In this document: positions 1 through 7,446 of the stretch, in pieces
Layout of the letters: every line of letters begins with the position of its first letter
Position numbering within the stretch: position 1 is the stretch's first letter
DNA from: Candidatus Azambacteria bacterium
GTDB lineage: Bacteria > Patescibacteriota > Minisyncoccia > UBA10092
Reading direction: 5' to 3'
Assembly: GCA_003455995.1 (NCBI GenBank)
Contig: DMPO01000003.1
Span: forward strand, 37,430-94,790
DNA length: 57,361 bases
The notes under the pieces: model-generated
What the model saw: the letters and a program-made list of their open reading frames with translations, nothing else
What the model was told of the DNA's origin: nothing
The model's database searches: none
Position numbers and translations under genes: made by a program

Positions 1-108
1 AATTTTTGGCCTCCCGAAAAGAGAGTGCCATATAACCGCTTCGCTATTATTCTCAACAGTTTGCAAAAACTGCGATTTAATCAATGGGGTCTCCCGACTA
101 ATCTTCAT
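1..108 (-). CDS. 5' end (36 codons, MKISRETPLIKSQFLQTVENNSEAVIWHSLFGRPKI...) of a gene running off the left edge; possibly a third SPASM-type maturase
   Basis: ATG at 108 is preceded by GGAGG and by the same leader motif as the two peptide genes. The N-terminus resembles that of the 4115..5506 radical SAM protein (VIWHSLFGR vs ALFHSISLG). Confidence 0.35.
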   Translation of the reverse strand, partial: MKISRETPLIKSQFLQTVENNSEAVIWHSLFGRPKI

Positions 109-229
109 CTTTTCCGCCCTCCTTTCCTAGCAATTGTTTGTTAAATTGTTAAAAATCTTTACAAAAACACCCTTGTTTTCCGCTTTTCAACTATGTCCGC
201 AACATACACTGCCCCGCAAAGTTTGTCAA
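109..229 (-). promoter_or_regulatory. Promoter (TTGACA-17-TATGTT, 201..229) plus about 90 nt leader carrying the TTAACAATTTAACAA motif (138..152) and a GGAGG SD
   Basis: Hexamers read directly. The leader is homologous to those at 3206..3325 and 5706..5831. Confidence 0.6.
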
Positions 230-251
230 TGGCGAAAATAAAGGGTATAAT
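223..251 (+). promoter_or_regulatory. Promoter TTGTCA-17-TATAAT. Its -35 overlaps the divergent minus-strand -35, and the ATG lies 7 nt after the -10 (leaderless)
   Basis: TTGTCA 223..228, 17 nt spacer, TATAAT 246..251, ATG at 258, no SD. Confidence 0.6.
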
Positions 252-257
252 ATTCAC

Positions 258-1187
258 ATGAAAATGAAAACCACCAAAAATAATATAAAATTAAACATTA
301 CCGTAAGCCGTTGGGCGAATTTTTATTTTTTTGTTCAAAATCTATCCGAATGGAATAATAGAAATAGAAAAGATTATAACACCCTATGGCAAGCGGAGCT
401 CGATCCGTTTTCCGAACGAGAAAAGAATGCCTTGAAAGCATTCAAAAAAGTTAGGTTGCGCTATAAATCGAATCGAGGCGAATTCGAGCGCGCCTTTTTT
501 ACATCGAAAGAACCATTAAAACAATTACAACTTACTCTTCCGACAGACGAATTTATTGTTATCAAAAAAGTTTTCGCTTTGTTCAAAAAAAAGTTTGATA
601 TTTTATATAAAAAGGATTTTCCGCTTTTGAAAAAATGGCAAGAAATTTTATATAGAAAAATAAACAAAAAATCACTGATAAAATCAATAATCTCTCCGAT
701 AGAAATTCTCTATAATGCCACCGCTCCAAAAAAAACCGTAGATATTTATTTATTGCTTTCCGCGCCCAATCATACTGGCGGCGGCGCGAATGTAAACGAT
801 CAGAGCGCCAGCATTGAAATTTCCCGCTATCCTACGCAAGGCATAAATCATGTGTTGGGAATCATTTGGCATGAAGTGATACATTTATGTTTTGAAAAAC
901 AATATTTTGTCCCTTTGCTTGTCGAGTATTTTGGTCGCGCAAGCAAATCTATTGGCTTGATAAGCGAAATCGCCGCGAGTTCTCTTTTGCCCAACGGCAT
1001 ACTCGGGCAAAGTATTTTATATTCTTTGCCTCCAAAGTTTCTTAACATAAGAATCCCAACCAAATTTAATAAAAAGCTGATGAATATAATGGGTGGCTAT
1101 ATGAAAAGTAAAAAACCTTTGGATAAAAAGTATATTCAAAATATCTGGACTATTGCCAAAGTTTTACAGAATAATTGGCAAAAATAA
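258..1187 (+). CDS. HExxH-motif protein (putative zinc metallopeptidase-like), function unknown
   Basis: 309 aa ORF with IIWHEVIHLCFEKQYF. It looks like a paralog of 3329..4060 (AIIAHELLHFMFYDYF). N-terminal SRWANFYFF is shared with the radical SAM protein at 4115..5506. Confidence 0.6.
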   Translation: MKMKTTKNNIKLNITVSRWANFYFFVQNLSEWNNRNRKDYNTLWQAELDPFSEREKNALKAFKKVRLRYKSNRGEFERAFFTSKEPLKQLQLTLPTDEFIVIKKVFALFKKKFDILYKKDFPLLKKWQEILYRKINKKSLIKSIISPIEILYNATAPKKTVDIYLLLSAPNHTGGGANVNDQSASIEISRYPTQGINHVLGIIWHEVIHLCFEKQYFVPLLVEYFGRASKSIGLISEIAASSLLPNGILGQSILYSLPPKFLNIRIPTKFNKKLMNIMGGYMKSKKPLDKKYIQNIWTIAKVLQNNWQK

Positions 1188-1193
1188 AAACAG

Positions 1194-1847
1194 ATGAGAA
1201 AAGAAGCTTACAAACAAAAACAATGCTATTGGGGGGGATTAAAACCAAATTCTACTCTCAAAAAATATCTGGTTAAATTCCCTAAGGGAAAAACTCTTGA
1301 TATCGGCGCCGGTAGTGGCAGAAATAGTGTTTTTTTGGCTAAAAATGGTTTTGAGGTAGAAGCGGTAGATAAAATCGAAGAAGAACTGGAAAAAATTAAA
1401 ATTACAGCAAAAAAATACCAATTGAAAATCAAAACAAAAGCGTGCAATGTAAATGATTTTAAGTTTGGAAAAAACAAGCATTCTTTAATTGTGGCAATTC
1501 ATTCCTTGGACTTTCTCAAAAAGAGCGAATTTGGCTTGATAATAAATAAAATTAAAAAATCAATTATAGCGAATGGATTCATATATCTTTCCGTTTTTTC
1601 AACTAAAGATCCAATGTATAAACTGATAACGGAAAAAGGAATCGGACAAATTGAAGAAAATACTTTTTATTTACCCAAATCTCAAACTTATAGGCATTTT
1701 TTTACCAAAAAAGAACTGCGAGAAAAATTCGAAAATTTCAAAATCATTATATTAAAGCAAAAACAGATATTGGATAAAGGACACGGCGAACCGCATCATC
1801 ATGATATAATTGAACTACTGGCTCAAAAAGAAAAAACGGCGAAATAA
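1194..1847 (+). CDS. Class I SAM-dependent methyltransferase (TehB-like)
   Basis: Motif I LDIGAGSGRNSVFLAKNG, followed by an acidic residue after the beta2 strand (VEAVD). 217 aa. Confidence 0.8.
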   Translation: MRKEAYKQKQCYWGGLKPNSTLKKYLVKFPKGKTLDIGAGSGRNSVFLAKNGFEVEAVDKIEEELEKIKITAKKYQLKIKTKACNVNDFKFGKNKHSLIVAIHSLDFLKKSEFGLIINKIKKSIIANGFIYLSVFSTKDPMYKLITEKGIGQIEENTFYLPKSQTYRHFFTKKELREKFENFKIIILKQKQILDKGHGEPHHHDIIELLAQKEKTAK

Positions 1848-1858
1848 TCCGCCGCTTT

Positions 1859-2953
1859 TTAAGCCAAATGCCAACATTGCGGATCGGGACTAAAAAAATC
1901 ACCCGAAACTCCATGAGATACCGCTCCGCAACCGCGACATCTGTATAATAAAGGACAATTTTTACACTTCTTGTAGCGAGTCAAATTTCTAAGGCGATTC
2001 AACTCTTTGGACATAATGAATAAATCAAATAAACTTTGCTCGGGGACCTTTCCTATCGGACTCTCAAAACGACGACAGGCATAAACCGTGCCATCGGATA
2101 ACACCGAAAGGCTGGCAACCCCTAAACTGCAACCGCTGATTACAATTTCTTGTTTTCTTATTCGTTCTATTTGCCGTTTTTCCTTTATAGAACATTTTTC
2201 GTAAAAGTATAATTCCCATAAATGGTCTTTAAATACGAATTTTGTTCTCGGATAAGTTATGGATAAAATTTTGCGAGCATTGTCAACTTCTTCCAGTAGC
2301 GACCTATATTCTTCGGGAGTGAACATTTGTTCTTTATATTCCTCCATCGACCAACCGCTGGGCTTACAAAATCTCGCAAAAGCAAAGGCACCAAAATTGT
2401 TTTCCATTATTTTTTTCATCACCTCGATTAAATCGGGAGCGTTAAATTTGGACAGAGTAAACATGCAGGTCGGTCTAATACCCGCTTCTTTTAGAATTCT
2501 TGCGGCCCTAAATACATCATGATAGCTGTCATTTTTTCTCAAAAAATCATGTTTTTCTTCTAGGCCATCTAAACTTAACTGATATTTGCGCACGCCTTTC
2601 GTTTTTAATCTTCCAGCCGTTAACTCATCAATAAAAAATGAGTTGCCTAAAATATCAATGGCAGTTTTTGATTTATGTTTTTTTGCCAATTCATTTATTA
2701 CATCCAACACTCGCCAAAAATCAGGATGGAGCATAGGATCGCCACCGGTCAAAACAAAAATAGGGTTGGCATTAAGCTGCAAAACAGTTTTATACATGTC
2801 ATCAACTATCAATGATAAAACATCGATGCATAATTCTTTCTGTTGATTCTCTTGAATGTATTCCGACTGATACAAATAACAATGCTTGCATCGTTGAGAA
2901 CATCGATCCGTAATATGCCATTGGAGATAAAAATTCGGTTTACGAGTTTTCAT
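1859..2953 (-). CDS. Radical SAM / SPASM-domain peptide-modifying enzyme
   Basis: CSQRCKHCY (CxxxCxxC). C-terminal SPASM pattern CSLGVASLSVLSDGTVYAC ... CKNCPLLYRCRGC ... DPQC. AAGGAG SD. Lies immediately downstream of the peptide gene. Confidence 0.85.
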   Translation of the reverse strand: MKTRKPNFYLQWHITDRCSQRCKHCYLYQSEYIQENQQKELCIDVLSLIVDDMYKTVLQLNANPIFVLTGGDPMLHPDFWRVLDVINELAKKHKSKTAIDILGNSFFIDELTAGRLKTKGVRKYQLSLDGLEEKHDFLRKNDSYHDVFRAARILKEAGIRPTCMFTLSKFNAPDLIEVMKKIMENNFGAFAFARFCKPSGWSMEEYKEQMFTPEEYRSLLEEVDNARKILSITYPRTKFVFKDHLWELYFYEKCSIKEKRQIERIRKQEIVISGCSLGVASLSVLSDGTVYACRRFESPIGKVPEQSLFDLFIMSKELNRLRNLTRYKKCKNCPLLYRCRGCGAVSHGVSGDFFSPDPQCWHLA

Positions 2954-2964
2954 TTCTGACTCCT

Positions 2965-3002
2965 TAATAAATAAGGCCGGATTCTTTTTTCGAATTAGGC
3001 CT
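2965..3002 (-). terminator. Imperfect hairpin between peptide gene and maturase (possible attenuator)
   Basis: aggccggattc / gaattaggcct arms (9 of 11 pair), followed on the minus strand by TTATTTATT. Confidence 0.3.
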
Positions 3003-3019
3003 CGGTTGCTGGGCGATAA

Positions 3020-3205
3020 CTAATCGAAATCGCAAGTCGGATCCGCCTGGCAAGGGTCACTATAGCAAGCCACCTGACATGCAGAACATGTAGAACGTGT
3101 TACTCTCATCCGTCTCTTGGGTAAAAAGGATATCTTTAGGGACCGTCTCCAGTAATTATACTTGCCCAAAACCTTCTTAATTTTCAAACTCCTTATCTTT
3201 TTCAT
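3020..3205 (-). CDS. Candidate RiPP precursor peptide, 61 aa, basic leader and Cys-rich C-terminus
   Basis: MKKIRSLKIKKVLGKYNYWRRSLKISFLPKRRMRVTRSTCSACQVACYSDPCQADPTCDFD. GGAGG lies 7 nt before the ATG. Five Cys fall in the last 22 residues. Directly upstream of the rSAM/SPASM gene. Confidence 0.7.
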   Translation of the reverse strand: MKKIRSLKIKKVLGKYNYWRRSLKISFLPKRRMRVTRSTCSACQVACYSDPCQADPTCDFD

Positions 3206-3325
3206 CTCTCGCCCTCCTTTCAGGCAAATTTACTTGTTAAATTGTTAAAAATCTGGCAAAAACCACCCTTTTATTTCCTTATTCAAATCTTCCCGCATTA
3301 TACAAACCCCCGCCCCGCTTGTCAA
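3206..3325 (-). promoter_or_regulatory. Perfect consensus promoter TTGACA-17-TATAAT (3297..3325) plus about 85 nt conserved leader with TTAACAATTTAACAA (3234..3248)
   Basis: Read directly. About 58 nt (3269..3326) are identical to 5775..5832. Confidence 0.75.
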
Positions 3326-3328
3326 GGT

Positions 3329-4060
3329 TTATTTTTTACGCCGTAATAATATTTTAATAAAAGGTTCTATGTCGCTTATGAGATTTTTGATTTTTAGCGA
3401 CATGGGATATTTATATTTTTTTTTGAGTTGAGAAATGATTTTTTTATGCTCCGGATAGGACATGGTTTCTTTTTCAAAAACATCCAGCCAAGTAGGAGAA
3501 TTTTGAACCAAGGAGTTGAAAATTTCCGATATGTGCCATACATAAATGCTATTTTCGGAATGCTTATAACGGGGATAATTTTCGCAAAAATAATCATAAA
3601 ACATAAAATGAAGCAGCTCATGCGCAATGATCGCATTTACATATTTCTTGTTTTTATATTTTATAGGAATCTGAAATGTTTTATCTTCGAGAAATCTTGG
3701 AAACATGCCCCAAATAGTCGCATAAGCAATATACTTCCCCTTTGGCCATGGCCTGTTATGAAAAAGATCTTTGACCAAATTAAAAAACCTGCCTTCCTTT
3801 TTCTTCCAATTAGTTTCGTAAACCTTAAAGTTTGCGGCAGCGACTGCGATATTTTTTTTATATAATCCCTCAATGTATTTTTTGATAAAAAGATAATCGA
3901 TATCGCTCTTTTTTTTGACTATTTTTCTCAATTGCGGATGCTTTTTAAAAATTGCCCATTCCAGATTTCTGCCATCATCAAACCCGGCTTCTTTTATAAA
4001 AGCTTTGAAAGTCGGCAGGTCTTTTTGAGCGTCAATCTTGAATTTTACTTTTGGATTCAT
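3329..4060 (-). CDS. HExxH-motif protein, paralog of 258..1187
   Basis: 243 aa with AIIAHELLHFMFYDYF. The order of conserved segments matches the 309 aa protein. Confidence 0.6.
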   Translation of the reverse strand: MNPKVKFKIDAQKDLPTFKAFIKEAGFDDGRNLEWAIFKKHPQLRKIVKKKSDIDYLFIKKYIEGLYKKNIAVAAANFKVYETNWKKKEGRFFNLVKDLFHNRPWPKGKYIAYATIWGMFPRFLEDKTFQIPIKYKNKKYVNAIIAHELLHFMFYDYFCENYPRYKHSENSIYVWHISEIFNSLVQNSPTWLDVFEKETMSYPEHKKIISQLKKKYKYPMSLKIKNLISDIEPFIKILLRRKK

Positions 4061-4089
4061 AAAAAAGAGGGCGAGTATGCCTCGCCCTC
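4061..4089 (-). terminator. Intrinsic terminator-like hairpin after the second rSAM gene
   Basis: gagggcgag-tatgc-ctcgccctc (9 bp perfect stem), followed on the minus strand by TTTTTT. The next ATG (4060) abuts the T run. Confidence 0.6.
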
Positions 4090-4114
4090 AAGATACCACC
4101 ATAAAACCATTTTC

Positions 4115-5506
4115 TCAAGTAATAAGCTGAGCATATGTCTCCCAAATTAGCCACTCAATGGTCATTTTGCCATGAGCGCAAGCGCGCTCGTCTAGATTCC
4201 AACGACTTCCAGTTTTTAGTTCCGCGCTCGCCGGACAACCGCCGCCACAGATGCCCATCGCCGGGCAATCCAAGCAATCTTTCATAAAAAACGGCGATCG
4301 CCTCTCCCATTCCTTAAAAAGACCAGCCGCCACCGGATCGCTATCTTTGTCTATAACTGACCCTCGAAAGTAAGTGCGCGGCTTTACGAAATCCTGACAA
4401 ACGCCGATTTGGCCATCGGGAGCAATAACCAGTTGATTGCCAATCACGCCGCAGTCGGCATAAATTGGTTGTCTATTGATAAATGCTCCGGCCTTTCTCA
4501 TCATGCGATCTTCATACATTCCGAGCTCTCGAAATTTCTCAAATGCGGCGATTTGGCATCTAACAGCGTCGGAATAATAATTCGGAGGCAAGAAAATATT
4601 CGGGTTAAAATGCAGGATGTTAAGACTAATACCATCAACCCAGCCAACCTCGTCGGTCAGAAAAGCCAGAAGCTTATCAAAGTGCTGTACGGCTTCGGAG
4701 GTCAATGTTACCGAAAGGCCAACCTTGGCTTTATATTTTTTAAGAAGACCCAACGCTCTCATGATAGCGGCAAAAACATCCAGCTCCCCATCCTTAGTCT
4801 TGCGATAGAGATTGTTCATTTCGTGCGGACCATCAATAGACACCCCCACTGTCACTCCTTTCTCGGAAAAAAACCTGGCCATTTCGTCATCAAGAAAAGT
4901 GCCATTTGTCACAATTGCGGTCTCGCACACTGATGGAAGAATCCCACGAGTCTTCAATCCACATATGTAATCAACCGCAAATCGCACCACCCCTCCATTC
5001 ATTAACGGCTCCCCGCCATAAAGATGAATCACCTTTTTCTTTTTGGGATCGCCATATCGAGCAACCATTCTCGCAAAAAGATCCAAAGCGTCCCGCGCGA
5101 TTTCAACGCTCATATGGACCGGATTAAATGGTTCAATCAGAACAGGGGAATCCTCAAAACAATAGCCGCATCTGAGATTGCAGTGGTCGGTTACGAGAAG
5201 ATACATTAGTTCAAGCGTGATTTCTTTTAAAAGTTTTTGCCGCGCCTCTTCAAGATATCCAAAGTCATCAAAATCATCGGTAACCAAAATGCCCTCATTC
5301 ATAAGAGCTTCCACAATATCGGCTCCGACAGATTCTTCAATTTCGCTTATTTCTTTGGACATCCCAATAAGCGGTTTGAGAGAACGAAATGTCTCTTCAG
5401 GAAGAAATACCAGCCCCAAAGAGATAGAATGAAATAATGCCGCTATCCCTGGCCGATTAAAAAAATTGGCCCAACGAGACATTCTAACTATGGTCCGGTT
5501 ATTCAT
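4115..5506 (-). CDS. Radical SAM / SPASM-domain peptide-modifying enzyme with an N-terminal extension
   Basis: CNLRCGYCFE. SPASM pattern CGVIGNQLVIAPDGQIGVC ... CLDCPAMGICGGGC ... ERAC. The track start at 5518 is a GTG lying inside the SD; ATG at 5506 follows GGGAGGA. Confidence 0.85.
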   Translation of the reverse strand: MNNRTIVRMSRWANFFNRPGIAALFHSISLGLVFLPEETFRSLKPLIGMSKEISEIEESVGADIVEALMNEGILVTDDFDDFGYLEEARQKLLKEITLELMYLLVTDHCNLRCGYCFEDSPVLIEPFNPVHMSVEIARDALDLFARMVARYGDPKKKKVIHLYGGEPLMNGGVVRFAVDYICGLKTRGILPSVCETAIVTNGTFLDDEMARFFSEKGVTVGVSIDGPHEMNNLYRKTKDGELDVFAAIMRALGLLKKYKAKVGLSVTLTSEAVQHFDKLLAFLTDEVGWVDGISLNILHFNPNIFLPPNYYSDAVRCQIAAFEKFRELGMYEDRMMRKAGAFINRQPIYADCGVIGNQLVIAPDGQIGVCQDFVKPRTYFRGSVIDKDSDPVAAGLFKEWERRSPFFMKDCLDCPAMGICGGGCPASAELKTGSRWNLDERACAHGKMTIEWLIWETYAQLIT

Positions 5507-5526
5507 AAATCCTCCCACATGATAAG

Positions 5527-5557
5527 TAAAAGCGGGAACGAGTTTTTTCGTCCCCGC
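5527..5557 (-). terminator. Intrinsic terminator/attenuator between the 43 aa peptide gene and the maturase
   Basis: On the minus-strand RNA: GCGGGGACG-AAAAAACU-CGUUCCCGC-UUUUAC. This is a 9 bp stem including one G.U pair. A second hairpin ccgcgg-ttagaa-ccgcgg lies at 5554..5571. Confidence 0.55.
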
Positions 5558-5573
5558 GGTTCTAACCGCGGCT

Positions 5574-5705
5574 TTAGCGGCGGTTGCAGACAGTATAGCA
5601 GCAACTCTCCATGGCCCAATTCACAAAATCCGGATTTGGGCCAAGGATCTTGCCAACTACTTTTACCCTGTCTGCCGGTTTAACCACAATCAGCCGTACT
5701 TTCAT
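5574..5705 (-). CDS. Candidate RiPP precursor peptide, 43 aa (not in the ORF track)
   Basis: Hand translation: MKVRLIVVKPADRVKVVGKILGPNPDFVNWAMESCCYTVCNRR, stop TAA. GGAGG lies 8 nt before the ATG. It has the same promoter and leader as the 61 aa peptide gene and sits immediately upstream of the rSAM/SPASM gene. Confidence 0.65.
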   Translation of the reverse strand: MKVRLIVVKPADRVKVVGKILGPNPDFVNWAMESCCYTVCNRR

Positions 5706-5831
5706 CTCTCTGCCCTCCTTTCGAGCAAATTGGTTAAATTGTTAAAAAACTTTCCTTTTATCCAAAAACCGCCTTTTTATTTCCTTATTCAAATCTTCCC
5801 GCATTATACAAACCCCCGCCCCGCTTGTCAA
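5706..5831 (-). promoter_or_regulatory. Perfect consensus promoter TTGACA-17-TATAAT (5803..5831) plus conserved leader with TTAACAATTTAACCA (5731..5745)
   Basis: Read directly; duplicate of the 3206..3325 module. Confidence 0.75.
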
Positions 5832-5843
5832 GCGCGAAATTTT

Positions 5844-6173
5844 TCAAGAATGAAGGCGGGCGGCGAGGGCGAAATTGAAAAAATAGCGGTTCAAGTCCTC
5901 GAGCGTTGTTTTATATTCTTTGCCGCCGAACATCGCATCAGCTAGCAATTCGCGGGCGCGAATGATTTCCTTGAGCCGAAAACGCCATCTGGGGTCGGCT
6001 ATTGTTAAGTCCAAAAGCTCGAACGCCCTGTCAATGGCATTGTCGTATGATTCTCGGTTTTTATCGCGCCAATTGAGCGCGCGGCTTATTTCGCCACCGA
6101 CATTGCCCAATTGTTCCATTAAAGAAAGTTTTTGCCATCCGCCGCCGGCTAATTCTTTATGTTGAATAACCAT
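5844..6173 (-). CDS. Hypothetical protein (weak MazG-like helical resemblance)
   Basis: 109 aa ORF, last gene of a four-gene minus-strand operon. The segment LMEQLGNVGGEISRAL is only suggestive. Confidence 0.35.
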   Translation of the reverse strand: MVIQHKELAGGGWQKLSLMEQLGNVGGEISRALNWRDKNRESYDNAIDRAFELLDLTIADPRWRFRLKEIIRARELLADAMFGGKEYKTTLEDLNRYFFNFALAARLHS

Positions 6174-6176
6174 AAA

Positions 6177-6521
6177 TTACAAAATCAGCTTGTTGATTAT
6201 ATCCCTGATTTTTATTTGGATTTCCAAATTTTCAACGCTTCTGGATCTGTTGTTTTGCGACGGCCGCACATTTATCATGGAATCAAACTCGACGAATCCA
6301 TTATCAGATTTGTTTATATGCAAATTTACGCCCCACAAATTTTCCTGCTTCGAACCCTCTTCCAAAAGCAATTTTTCTTCATCGGCATGTAAATCGCCGC
6401 CGATAGCCATAATTTCTTTTTCAATATCGATTACGGCCTTTACCAATTCGCCGAATTGATTTTCGGCGATTTTTCGCAATTCATTTTTTGAAATCGAATC
6501 GTTTACAATTTTTATCGCCAT
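6177..6521 (-). CDS. Conserved hypothetical protein (recalled as DUF5674-like)
   Basis: 114 aa. VKAVIDIEKEIMAIGGDLHADEEKLLLEEGSKQENLWGVNL matches a family I recall from archaeal and CPR genomes; this was not verified. Confidence 0.4.
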   Translation of the reverse strand: MAIKIVNDSISKNELRKIAENQFGELVKAVIDIEKEIMAIGGDLHADEEKLLLEEGSKQENLWGVNLHINKSDNGFVEFDSMINVRPSQNNRSRSVENLEIQIKIRDIINKLIL

Positions 6522-6527
6522 AAATAC

Positions 6528-6830
6528 TTAATGGGGATTGATATTAAAAATCGCTTTTTCCCGGACATCTTTTTTGAGTCGGATATTAAATATCGTGGTC
6601 CAAAAATTTAGAACCTTTTCAAACCAAACGCCGCGTCCGGGATTTTTGACAATTTCTTTTATTTCCTCATCAGAATATATTTCTTTAAGCCATTTAATAT
6701 CATCCCATGTGCCATAGTTTAAAACTTGAGAAATAACATAATCTTTGTCGCGATCAAAATTTATAGTTTTTATATCGTACGACCAGAATAGCCACCGCAT
6801 TTTTTGAGGAATTTTTTTATTTTTAGTCAT
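6528..6830 (-). CDS. Small conserved hypothetical protein partnered with the AbiEii-like gene
   Basis: 100 aa. Overlaps the upstream NTase gene by 8 nt. Motif pattern LFWSYD...VISQVLNYGTWDDIKWL. Confidence 0.4.
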   Translation of the reverse strand: MTKNKKIPQKMRWLFWSYDIKTINFDRDKDYVISQVLNYGTWDDIKWLKEIYSDEEIKEIVKNPGRGVWFEKVLNFWTTIFNIRLKKDVREKAIFNINPH

Positions 6831-7446
6831 TTTTTTGATATTTTTTTACTTCCTCTATTAAAAATTCTTTTATTTTTGGCCAAGAAGCGGTGCCAAATAG
6901 ATATAATTTTCTTTGCTGTTTTTTGTCGGCATCGGCAAAATAAGTCAAACCGCGAAGACCGACATAAATATTAAATTCTGGATATTTTTGTTTTACAAAT
7001 GAAAAGATATTTTCAAGAGAAAACTCCTTCATCAAGAAATAAACATCCACAAAGTCTCTTCTGGTTCCTCTATCGGAAACTGCAATTATTTTCATGGCCG
7101 CTATATCTTGCTTTGAAGCAATGCGAAGACCGTTAATTTCTGCAGGAGGAAACACCATTGGGTATGAATAGTAAAAAAAACTTGCGGCAACTTCGTTTAA
7201 TTTCACTATAAGAGTATCTTCCGCTTTCTGTAAAAGAATAACTTTTTCAAATCGCTTTCTTAATTCCTGATATAATTTCGCGCTATCAAACTTCTTATTT
7301 ATATAAAAATCGAAATCAAGGGAAGTTCGATGGCCGATCTGCAAAGCCAAAGCGGTGCCGCCGGCCATATAAAAACCCTGTTTATTTAAAAAACCGAGTT
7401 TTGATAAAAGTTTTTTTCTTTTTGGGTCTAAAATTTCTAAACGCAT
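6823..7446 (-). CDS. Nucleotidyltransferase, AbiEii/AbiGii toxin-like
   Basis: GGTALALQIGHRTSLDFDFY is typical of the AbiEii (DUF1814) NTase family. 207 aa, which is short for the family. Confidence 0.55.
   Translation of the reverse strand: MRLEILDPKRKKLLSKLGFLNKQGFYMAGGTALALQIGHRTSLDFDFYINKKFDSAKLYQELRKRFEKVILLQKAEDTLIVKLNEVAASFFYYSYPMVFPPAEINGLRIASKQDIAAMKIIAVSDRGTRRDFVDVYFLMKEFSLENIFSFVKQKYPEFNIYVGLRGLTYFADADKKQQRKLYLFGTASWPKIKEFLIEEVKKYQKND

What the first reader, a model, noticed from the sequence alone, without database searches (positions are those of the whole stretch)
5574..5705. Unannotated 43-codon ORF is the likely substrate of the second maturase
The ORF is below the track's length cutoff. 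It has ATG, GGAGG at 8 nt, the duplicated promoter and leader, and a CC-x3-C C-terminus. It ends 55 nt before the maturase SD. Its start (MKVRLIVVKP..VKVVGK) loosely parallels the 61 aa peptide (MKKIRSLKIKKVLGK).
Basis: seen in the sequence. Interest (0 to 1): 0.7.

Follow-up and report, generated by a model that had tools for sequence, protein, structure and literature searches.

The report
Cys-rich precursor peptide for radical-SAM maturase
The 43-codon reading frame is a real, conserved gene for a small cysteine-rich peptide that the neighbouring radical-SAM enzyme most likely cross-links; it belongs to an unnamed peptide family found here only in loci labelled as candidate-phyla-radiation bacteria, or mislabelled ones.

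Summary
ORF 5574-5705 (minus strand) encodes MKVRLIVVKPADRVKVVGKILGPNPDFVNWAMESCCYTVCNRR. It sits behind a perfect sigma-70-type promoter, a ~97-nt leader and a GGAGG 8 nt from the ATG.

Of 73 loci whose radical-SAM enzyme is at least 42% identical and that have upstream sequence, 71 carry a homologous small ORF 37-110 nt upstream (53 distinct peptides). The shared leader motif is DRxKVLGxI and the shared core is CC[YF]T[SA]C[TS]RC. Conservation is at the codon level (dN/dS 0.11-0.23).

The cassette has three genes: peptide, RRE-rSAM-SPASM enzyme, and a 243-aa HExxH zincin-like protein. Strong hairpins lie in both spacers.

The peptide family is a remote relative of NCBIfam's FibroRumin precursors (TIGR04135; hhalign 94.5%). 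Both the peptide and the enzyme fall below the curated cut-offs. Every called homologue that carries a source name is 'hypothetical protein'.

The cross-link chemistry is inferred, not shown; I favour thioether. The window's peptide alone lacks the near-invariant last Cys (R43). The resemblance to the 61-aa peptide is a 7-residue motif and is not significant.

Verdict: a new variant of a known kind, of moderate interest.

The parts
5803..5831 (-). Sigma-70-type promoter, TTGACA-17 nt-TATAAT
   Evidence: 12/12 consensus match. It lies within a 57-nt block identical to 3269-3325.
5706..5802 (-). 5' leader with the conserved TTTTTAACAATTTAAC element and the SD GGAGG (5718-5714), 8 nt before the ATG
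   Evidence: The module is repeated 3 times in the window and 5 times in the island. No Rfam family reaches its threshold.
5574..5705 (-). Precursor peptide gene, 43 aa. Leader is roughly residues 1-33 (motif DRVKVVGKI); core is roughly CCYTVCNRR
   Evidence: Orthologous ORFs in 71/73 loci. dN/dS 0.11-0.23. Invariant C35, C36, C40; at least 90% R13, T38, R42, C43. hhalign 94.5% to FibroRumin precursors.
5522..5557 (-). Intercistronic stem-loop (10 bp, 7 GC) followed by TTTTACTTAT; terminator-like
   Evidence: the terminator stem is in both the MFE and centroid structures; the 74-nt spacer as a whole folds at -25.9 kcal/mol, z -2.4. The hairpin alone is -18.7 kcal/mol. A hairpin is present in the same spacer in 51 of 52 distinct loci; median -20.7 kcal/mol, median z -5.35.
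4115..5506 (-). RRE-radical SAM-SPASM peptide maturase, 463 aa from the ATG at 5506 (SD GGGAGG 5516-5511)
   Evidence: Best NCBIfam hit is TIGR04136, 267.7 bits against a cut-off of 400. CxxxCxxC is C109/C113/C116 and there are seven SPASM cysteines. TigE 8VPO aligns over the full length. AF2 pLDDT 94; Foldseek to TigE and CteB TM 0.71-0.80.
4067..4089 (-). Second stem-loop (9 bp, 7 GC) plus a T-run that runs into the ATG of the next gene
   Evidence: A hairpin with z < -2 occurs in this spacer in 47 of 50 distinct loci.
3329..4060 (-). 243-aa HExxH protein, a candidate zincin-type leader peptidase
   Evidence: Directly downstream of the rSAM in 67 of 72 family loci. Invariant H147, E148, H151; E179 at least 90%. 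Weak Pfam hits to DUF3267, DUF5700 and SprT-like zincins.
3211..3326 (-). Second copy of the promoter/leader/SD module, driving the 61-aa peptide (context)
113..230 (-). Third, more diverged copy of the module. It drives a 467-aa rSAM that runs off the left end of the window (context)

Best explanation
The ORF encodes the ribosomal precursor of a small modified peptide (a RiPP). It is the first gene of a three-gene cassette.

Proposed mechanism:
1. A consensus promoter and strong SD give high expression of the 43-aa peptide.
2. A stable stem-loop with a U-tract in the 67-nt spacer (stop codon to the maturase ATG) lets only part of the transcripts continue, or stabilises the short upstream mRNA. 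The precursor therefore outnumbers the enzyme.
3. [quoted passage not shown]
4. The radical-SAM cluster (C109-x3-C113-x2-C116) generates a 5'-deoxyadenosyl radical, which abstracts a hydrogen in the C-terminal core CC-Y-T-x-C-x-R-(C).
5. With the two SPASM auxiliary clusters, cysteine sulfurs are joined to carbon atoms of neighbouring residues as thioether (sacti- or ranthi-type) cross-links. The near-invariant Thr38 is a plausible acceptor.
6. The co-conserved HExxH zincin-like protein then removes the leader.

Shown here: the gene is real and under purifying selection; it is strictly syntenic with this enzyme family; the enzyme architecture; remote homology to FibroRumin precursors.

Inferred: leader binding, the attenuation role of the hairpin, thioether chemistry (my estimate about 0.55 given that it is a substrate), and the protease role of the HExxH protein (about 0.5).
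For: - Synteny: 71/73 orthologous loci carry the peptide, and there are 53 distinct sequences.
- Selection: purifying, dN/dS 0.11-0.23.
- Conserved residues: invariant C35, C36, C40 and near-invariant R13, T38, R42, C43.
- Homology to curated precursors: hhalign 94.5%, E 7.7e-8. Intermediate candidate-phyla-radiation peptides hit TIGR04135 at E 6e-6 to 5e-4.
- Enzyme family: full-length best hit is TIGR04136. The next hits are thioether formers: PapB, QhpD and the SCIFF maturase.
- Structure: the top matches are TigE and the thioether synthase CteB, both RRE-rSAM-SPASM (PMC10878394).
- Hairpin: present in the spacer in 51/52 distinct loci.
- Protease candidate: the HExxH gene is downstream in 67/72 loci, with an invariant HExxH.
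- Background: rSAM-SPASM enzymes acting on Cys-rich peptides form C-alpha, C-beta or C-gamma thioethers (PMC10114670).
Against: - There are no expression, proteomic or chemical data.
- The peptide gets no hit to TIGR04135 even at E <= 10, and the enzyme scores 267.7 against a cut-off of 400. Family-level transfer of function is therefore weak.
- I found no publication on the FibroRumin family in the searchable library; as far as I know it has no published chemistry.
- The best solved-structure hit, TigE, makes cyclopropylglycine, not thioethers.
- Pfam does not detect a SPASM domain in the window's enzyme.
- The window's peptide lacks the near-invariant last Cys (R43), so this allele might be impaired.
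- No transporter is conserved in the cassette.
- The HExxH protein has only sub-threshold zincin matches, and its single-sequence model was poor (pLDDT 41).
Confidence: 0.85

Rival explanations
1. It is the enzyme's substrate, but the modification is not a thioether. Alternatives include a C-C or C-O cross-link to Tyr37, epimerisation, Cys oxidation as in anSME, or cyclopropanation as in TigE. This overlaps with the best explanation and differs only in the chemistry.
For: The best PDB hit is the cyclopropylglycine synthase TigE. anSME also ranks high. The aromatic residue at position 37 and R42 are conserved. rSAM-SPASM chemistry is diverse and hard to predict from sequence (PMC10114670).
Against: TigE's diagnostic GYW motif is absent: the window has YEDRMMRK at that position (PMC10878394). 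The only invariant core residues are cysteines. The highest-scoring named families after FibroRumin are thioether formers: PapB, QhpD and the SCIFF maturase.
Confidence: 0.3
2. It is a regulatory leader ORF. Translation of the Cys-rich frame controls formation of the downstream terminator hairpin (attenuation), and so controls maturase expression. On this reading the peptide itself has no function.
For: A terminator-like hairpin starts 17 nt after the stop codon. By eye, a second possible hairpin (CCGCGGTT-AGA-AACCGCGG) overlaps its 5' arm by 4 nt. Cys codons cluster near the stop.
Against: Amino-acid-level conservation extends over the whole peptide, including leader residues R13 and KVLGxI. 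The peptide is homologous to RiPP precursors. Many orthologous hairpins have no U-tract, and the overlapping alternative hairpin is not evident in L001 or L004. A similar hairpin also follows the rSAM gene.
Confidence: 0.04
3. It is a small unmodified Cys-rich peptide, for example a metal- or Fe-S-binding partner or a toxin, that is merely co-transcribed with the rSAM.
For: Three to four cysteines in nine residues could bind metal. No modification has been observed.
Against: Adjacency to an RRE-bearing peptide maturase is strict in 71/73 loci. The layout is leader plus core, with the conserved leader motif shared with FibroRumin precursors whose cores differ.
Confidence: 0.06
4. It is a chance open frame in a non-coding leader region.
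For: 43 sense codons in a row are not rare by themselves. The NCBI record does not call the ORF.
Against: Promoter plus SD plus ATG. Conservation in 53 distinct sequences with third-position bias.
Confidence: 0.01

Closest known systems
FibroRumin system (NCBIfam TIGR04135 Cys-rich RiPP precursor and TIGR04136 radical SAM maturase)
   Same: TIGR04136 is the best-scoring family for the enzyme, over its full length. Both have a short precursor directly upstream. The leader motif is shared: x-x-[KM]-[LMV]-[FLV]-G-x-I. hhalign of the two peptide profiles gives 94.5%. Intermediate peptides from candidate-phyla-radiation loci give sub-threshold TIGR04135 hits.
   Different: - Both curated cut-offs are missed: enzyme 267.7 against 400; peptide has no hit.
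- The core is one short CC[YF]TSCTRC unit at the very C-terminus. Classical members have long C-x-C-x2-C runs followed by an acidic ...EW tail.
- There is one precursor per cassette, whereas the classical loci seen here usually carry a tandem pair.
- A conserved HExxH gene follows the enzyme. It is absent from the classical loci of Firmicutes, Fibrobacter and Proteobacteria.
- The host range of the loci found here is Patescibacteria.
SCIFF / thermocellin system (CteA precursor, CteB maturase; PDB 5WGG, 5WHY)
   Same: The architecture is RRE-rSAM-SPASM. Foldseek TM is 0.73-0.80 over the full length. The target is a Cys-rich C-terminal core. Thermocellin carries an S-C-gamma link (PMC10114670), and this core has a near-invariant Thr.
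   Different: Only about 20% identity. TIGR03974 scores 104.7 against a cut-off of 425. The leader and core motifs are different.
PapB / freyrasin and QhpD ranthipeptide-type thioether synthases
   Same: These are the second and fourth best NCBIfam hits (128 and 110 bits). They are rSAM-SPASM enzymes that link Cys sulfur to side-chain carbons.
   Different: Both are far below their cut-offs (340 and 453). PapB targets Cys-X3-Asp/Glu motifs (PMC9413430), and no conserved acidic acceptor exists in this core.
TigE / TvgB cyclopropylglycine synthases (PDB 8VPO)
   Same: TigE is the best solved-structure match by sequence (E 7.8e-23, residues 3-454) and by fold. Its domain boundaries are the same: RRE 3-85, RS 108-332, SPASM 352-469 (PMC10878394).
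   Different: The diagnostic GYW motif is absent. The substrates are Val/Ile repeat peptides, not Cys-rich ones.
ACGX-repeat system (TIGR04340 rSAM), the neighbouring cassette in the window
   Same: It uses the same promoter/leader module and has a Cys-rich C-terminus (CSACQVACYSDPCQADPTC). Its rSAM (1859-2953) has TIGR04340 as best hit, 311 bits against a cut-off of 400.
   Different: The enzyme belongs to a different clade and has no N-terminal RRE. The 61-aa peptide is not detectably homologous to the 43-aa peptide.

Membership tests
RiPP precursor peptide (generic) | Short ORF adjacent to, and co-oriented with, its maturase, conserved across loci | tested here: met
   71/73 orthologous loci, with a gap of 37-110 nt.
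RiPP precursor peptide (generic) | A conserved leader recognition motif plus a separate modified core | tested here: met
   Leader DRxKVLGxI (R13 at least 90%). Core invariant at C35, C36 and C40. A variable linker lies between them.
RiPP precursor peptide (generic) | The peptide is post-translationally modified and the leader is removed | not testable with these tools
   Needs expression and mass spectrometry.
FibroRumin precursor, TIGR04135 | Score of at least 45 bits against the curated model | tested here: not met
   No hit even at E <= 10 for the window peptide. Classical members score 60-68 bits and intermediates 20-26 bits.
FibroRumin precursor, TIGR04135 | Profile-level homology to family members | tested here: met
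   hhalign A3 against A5: probability 94.5%, E 7.7e-8, 42 columns spanning the leader and the start of the core.
FibroRumin precursor, TIGR04135 | Extended multi-Cys core followed by an acidic tail ending in Trp. This is my reading of the classical members collected here, not a curated definition. | tested here: not met
   A5 has an invariant W50 and at least 5 conserved Cys. The window peptide ends CCYTVCNRR.
FibroRumin maturase, TIGR04136 | Score of at least 400 bits | tested here: not met
   267.7 bits, but it is the best family and the match is full length: residues 14-462 against model positions 2-454 of 458.
Radical SAM / SPASM peptide maturase | CxxxCxxC radical-SAM cluster motif | tested here: met
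   C109, C113 and C116 are invariant in 28 homologues. Pfam PF04055, E 4.6e-16.
Radical SAM / SPASM peptide maturase | Seven-Cys SPASM motif for two auxiliary clusters | tested here: met
   C352, C370, C411, C414, C420, C424 and C443 are invariant. They align with the TigE SPASM domain. The Pfam SPASM model itself does not fire on the window protein, though it does on homologues.
Radical SAM / SPASM peptide maturase | N-terminal RiPP recognition element (winged helix) | tested here: met
   Residues 3-96 align to TigE 4-104, and TigE's RRE is residues 3-85 (PMC10878394). The AF2 model has beta-strands followed by three helices in residues 6-70 with block-mean pLDDT 80-97. Full-length Foldseek alignments to CteB and TigE.
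Sacti-/ranthipeptide | Cys-S to C-alpha, C-beta or C-gamma thioether cross-links in the product | not testable with these tools
   Inferred only from enzyme relatives and the Cys-rich core.
Cyclopropylglycine synthase (TvgB/TigE) | Strictly conserved GYW motif whose Tyr ligates Aux I | tested here: not met
   TigE 338-340 (GYW) aligns with the window's YEDRMMRK segment (PMC10878394).
Zincin metallopeptidase (for the 243-aa protein) | HExxH plus a downstream third ligand; a significant family match | tested here: inconclusive
   H147-E148-x-x-H151 is invariant and E179 is at least 90% conserved. Pfam gives only sub-threshold hits: DUF3267 in 13/25 members (best E 0.021), DUF5700 in 4/25. There is no PDB sequence hit. 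The AF2 single-sequence model is unusable.

The most novel reading that the evidence does not exclude
These may be the founding members of a RiPP class, so far seen only in loci labelled as candidate-phyla-radiation bacteria or mislabelled ones. The product would be a roughly 9-residue core (CCYTSCTRC) carrying a cross-link pattern or chemistry not seen in known sacti- or ranthipeptides, released by a dedicated and so far unclassified zincin. It would be produced from a multi-cassette island (four rSAM maturases and five copies of one promoter/leader module) that these reduced-genome, host-dependent bacteria may use to act on their hosts or competitors.
Probability: 0.25. Interest if true: 0.75.

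Novelty: new variant of a known kind. Interest (0 to 1): 0.5.

Why it matters
Candidate-phyla-radiation (Patescibacteria) bacteria have tiny genomes. One MAG survey read here found no biosynthetic gene clusters in its Patescibacteria MAGs (PMC11613949).

This study shows a conserved three-gene peptide-maturation cassette: more than 50 distinct precursors across the loci fetched, and 48 cluster representatives in a 1.84-billion-protein library. No curated model names the peptide or the protease-like partner. The precursors are often not even called as genes.

The result gives a concrete and cheap target. The core is 9 residues, there is one enzyme and one putative protease. That makes it a practical route to learning what chemistry the uncharacterised FibroRumin-type maturases perform and what small molecules these bacteria make. 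The C-terminal consensus is also a practical search handle for annotating these short genes.

Tried and rejected
- Direct search with the single 43-aa peptide found only itself. The word index is too coarse, so homologues were recovered through the enzyme's loci instead.
- NCBIfam and Pfam on the peptide: no hit.
- Rfam on 1-7000: nothing near any gathering score, so the repeated leader is not a known riboswitch or RNA.
- Homology between the 43-aa and 61-aa peptides: rejected.
The single-sequence model had pLDDT 41 and was not used for a fold search.
- Profile search of the HExxH family against PDB sequences: no meaningful hit.
- Literature searches for FibroRumin, TIGR04135/6, and Patescibacteria with RiPP and SPASM returned nothing relevant.
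- The cyclopropyl-synthase reading suggested by the top PDB hit was rejected because the GYW motif is absent.
- Two long proteins (3063 and 1729 aa, with many short stretches) in the full-library search look like repeat or low-complexity matches. I did not inspect them.

Full report
**1. What is in the sequence**

On the minus strand, 5705-5574 reads ATG...TAA and encodes MKVRLIVVKPADRVKVVGKILGPNPDFVNWAMESCCYTVCNRR.
- GGAGG lies at 5718-5714, 8 nt from the ATG.
- A perfect TTGACA-17-TATAAT promoter lies at 5831-5803. An identical one lies at 3325-3297, in front of the 61-aa peptide.
- A 57-nt block is identical at the two sites, with none expected by chance.
- The promoter/leader/SD module is triplicated in the window. 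A more diverged copy sits at 113-230.
- Fetching the flanking DNA showed five copies in a 15-kb island.
- GGAGG-N5-10-ATG occurs only 12 times in the whole 57-kb window, and three of these belong to the modules.
- The ORF's stop is 55-57 nt from the SD of the next gene, whose likely start is the ATG at 5506.

**2. Is it a gene?**

The single peptide finds only itself in the 5.8-billion-protein index, so I went through the enzyme.
- The 463-aa radical-SAM protein has hundreds of homologues. The source names shown for the listed ones are mostly Patescibacteria group.
- An alignment of 28 of them was used to fetch 160 loci from genomes and metagenomes.
- Scanning the 400 nt upstream of each enzyme gene found a small ORF with a CC[YFW..]TxC core in 80 loci, giving 53 distinct peptides.
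- Among loci with an enzyme at least 42% identical and at least 250 nt of upstream sequence, 71 of 73 have it. One of the two exceptions has only a partial match to the enzyme, starting at residue 174.
- Close orthologues are exactly 43 codons long. For example, L001 reads MKARLVIVKPADRAKVVGKILGPRPDFVNWAMDTCCWTSCTRC and L004 reads MKTQLVVPSAADRAKVVGKILGPRPDFVKWVMETCCFTTCTRC.
- Nei-Gojobori estimates among five such orthologues give dN/dS 0.11-0.23 where dS is not saturated. Differences concentrate at third positions, for example 5/5/23.

**3. Anatomy of the peptide family**

- Alignment A3 (48 sequences) has invariant C35, C36 and C40, and at least 90% R13, T38, R42 and C43. An independent alignment of database-called members gives the same picture.
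- The consensus is ...V-x4-DRxKVLGxI-(variable 8-15)-CCYTSCTRC, usually ending the protein.
- The window's peptide is the only one of the 53 that lacks the last Cys. It has Arg, CGC instead of TGC.
- A 93%-identical variant from another sample ends CSRC.
- The R43 allele is indexed in 78 blocks of the collection, so it is not a read error.

**4. The cassette**

- The enzyme has the CxxxCxxC motif and seven SPASM cysteines, all invariant in the family.
- Its best solved relative is TigE (8VPO), aligned over residues 3-454. TigE's published domains are RRE 3-85, radical SAM 108-332 and SPASM 352-469.
- An AlphaFold model built with the family alignment has pLDDT 94. Its N-terminus is strands followed by three helices.
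- Foldseek puts TigE and the thioether synthase CteB on top, with TM 0.71-0.80.
- TigE's diagnostic GYW motif is absent.
- Directly downstream, 67 of 72 family loci carry a homologue of the window's 243-aa protein. The five exceptions have a different core type.
- That protein family has invariant H147-E148-x-x-H151 and a conserved E179. It has only sub-threshold matches to putative zincin families.
- Both spacers hold strong stem-loops.
  - Peptide-enzyme spacer: 51 of 52 distinct loci, median -20.7 kcal/mol, median z -5.35. The sequences differ but the pairing is kept. In the window it is 10 bp followed by TTTTACTT.
  - Enzyme-HExxH spacer: 47 of 50 loci.

**5. How it most likely works**

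See the best explanation for the full sequence of steps. The steps resting on direct evidence here are:
- the existence of the gene and the selection on it;
- its fixed partnership with this enzyme;
- the enzyme's RRE-rSAM-SPASM architecture.

The inferred steps are:
- leader-RRE binding;
- the hairpin setting the precursor-to-enzyme ratio;
- thioether formation;
- leader removal by the HExxH protein.

Thioether formation is favoured for three reasons. The only invariant core residues are Cys. The closest named enzyme families are PapB, QhpD and the SCIFF maturase. CteB is a top structural match.

**6. Comparison with what is known**

- NCBIfam holds a computationally defined pair: TIGR04135 (FibroRumin Cys-rich RiPP) and TIGR04136 (its maturase).
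- The window's enzyme scores best against TIGR04136 but below its cut-off, 267.7 against 400. The peptide gets no hit.
- Classical peptides recovered next to the 31-35%-identical enzymes in Firmicutes, Fibrobacter, Spirochaetes and Proteobacteria score 60-68 bits, above the 45-bit cut-off. Peptides from candidate-phyla-radiation loci with intermediate cores score 20-26 bits.
- Profile-profile comparison of the two peptide sets gives 94.5% probability over the leader and the start of the core.
- The family is therefore a divergent branch of the FibroRumin type. It has its own short core, a single precursor per cassette, and an added HExxH gene that the classical loci lack.
- I found no paper on FibroRumin or on this family in the searchable library.
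- Among the called homologues, every one that carries a source name is 'hypothetical protein'.
- A full HMM scan of 1.84 billion representatives finds 48 clusters.

**7. The 61-aa peptide**

It shares the promoter module and has KKVLGKY where the family has xKVLGxI. That is all: hhalign probability is 0.9% and BLASTP finds no alignment. Its own rSAM is ACGX-like and lacks an RRE. Whether the shared heptad matters cannot be decided here.

**8. Verdict**

It is a new variant of a known but uncharacterised kind. I give confidence 0.85 for the assignment, about 0.55 for thioether chemistry, and interest 0.5.

Noticed in passing
window 113-230, 3211-3326, 5712-5832 (minus); L168 1187-1289, 3638-3740, 6882-6984, 9978-10080, 12484-12586: One promoter/leader/SD module is reused five times in a 15-kb island, at 2.4-3.2 kb spacing, in front of five transcription units. 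It contains a conserved TTTTTAACAATTTAAC element that is otherwise nearly absent from the window. This suggests common regulation or repeated recombination.
   Followed up: partly
window 1-112 (minus) and beyond the left end; L168 5448-6851: The third module copy drives a 467-aa RRE-rSAM-SPASM enzyme directly (best hit PapB family, 123 bits) with no small ORF next to it. It is an orphan maturase that might act in trans on one of the two peptides.
   Followed up: partly
L168 1358-3740 (left of the window): There is a fourth rSAM-SPASM enzyme (465 aa; best hit the mycofactocin radical SAM maturase model, 181 bits, followed by heme-b-synthase and NirJ-type models). It is followed, not preceded, by a 54-aa Cys-rich ORF (...GGCPSCCTCLCPST) and another HExxH protein (CVAHETAHILF).
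   Followed up: no
window 5574-5579: The window's peptide ends NRR. All 52 other distinct family members keep a Cys at the last core position, and a 93%-identical variant (P0122) ends SRC. The difference is a single base (CGC versus TGC), and the R43 allele is indexed in 78 blocks of the collection.
   Followed up: partly
window 3020-3205 (minus): The 61-aa peptide carries KKVLGKY, which matches the leader motif of the 43-aa family. Its own ACGX-like rSAM (1859-2953) has no RRE domain. The match is not statistically supported.
   Followed up: yes
window 4067-4089 (minus) and the same spacer in 47 of 50 loci: A conserved strong hairpin lies between the rSAM and the HExxH gene. In many loci a TATAAT-like string precedes it, and in the window the T-run ends in the ATG. 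The HExxH gene has no obvious SD.
   Followed up: partly
window 258-1187 (+) and 1194-1847 (+): A 309-aa paralogue of the HExxH protein (HEVIH) and a TehB-like SAM methyltransferase converge on the second cassette. Related methyltransferases lie near the cassette in 7 of the fetched loci (27-58% identity).
   Followed up: partly
L117 5448-5603: Only the last 52 codons of a homologue of the 364-aa rSAM remain, next to the methyltransferase. The second cassette may therefore be present or absent among related genomes.
   Followed up: no
L028-L056 and related loci: The more distant enzyme homologues, mostly in loci labelled as candidate-phyla-radiation bacteria, have at least two further core types behind the same leader motif: KCGTCACKCACRYNN...SPW and a 32-33-aa form ending CACGCSC. 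Most of those loci also carry the HExxH gene.
   Followed up: partly
L001 7937-9071: In a related contig, an ATP-grasp (MvdD/RimK-like) gene with an overlapping 47-aa ORF sits 1 kb downstream of the cassette. This may be a graspetide-type second RiPP.
   Followed up: no
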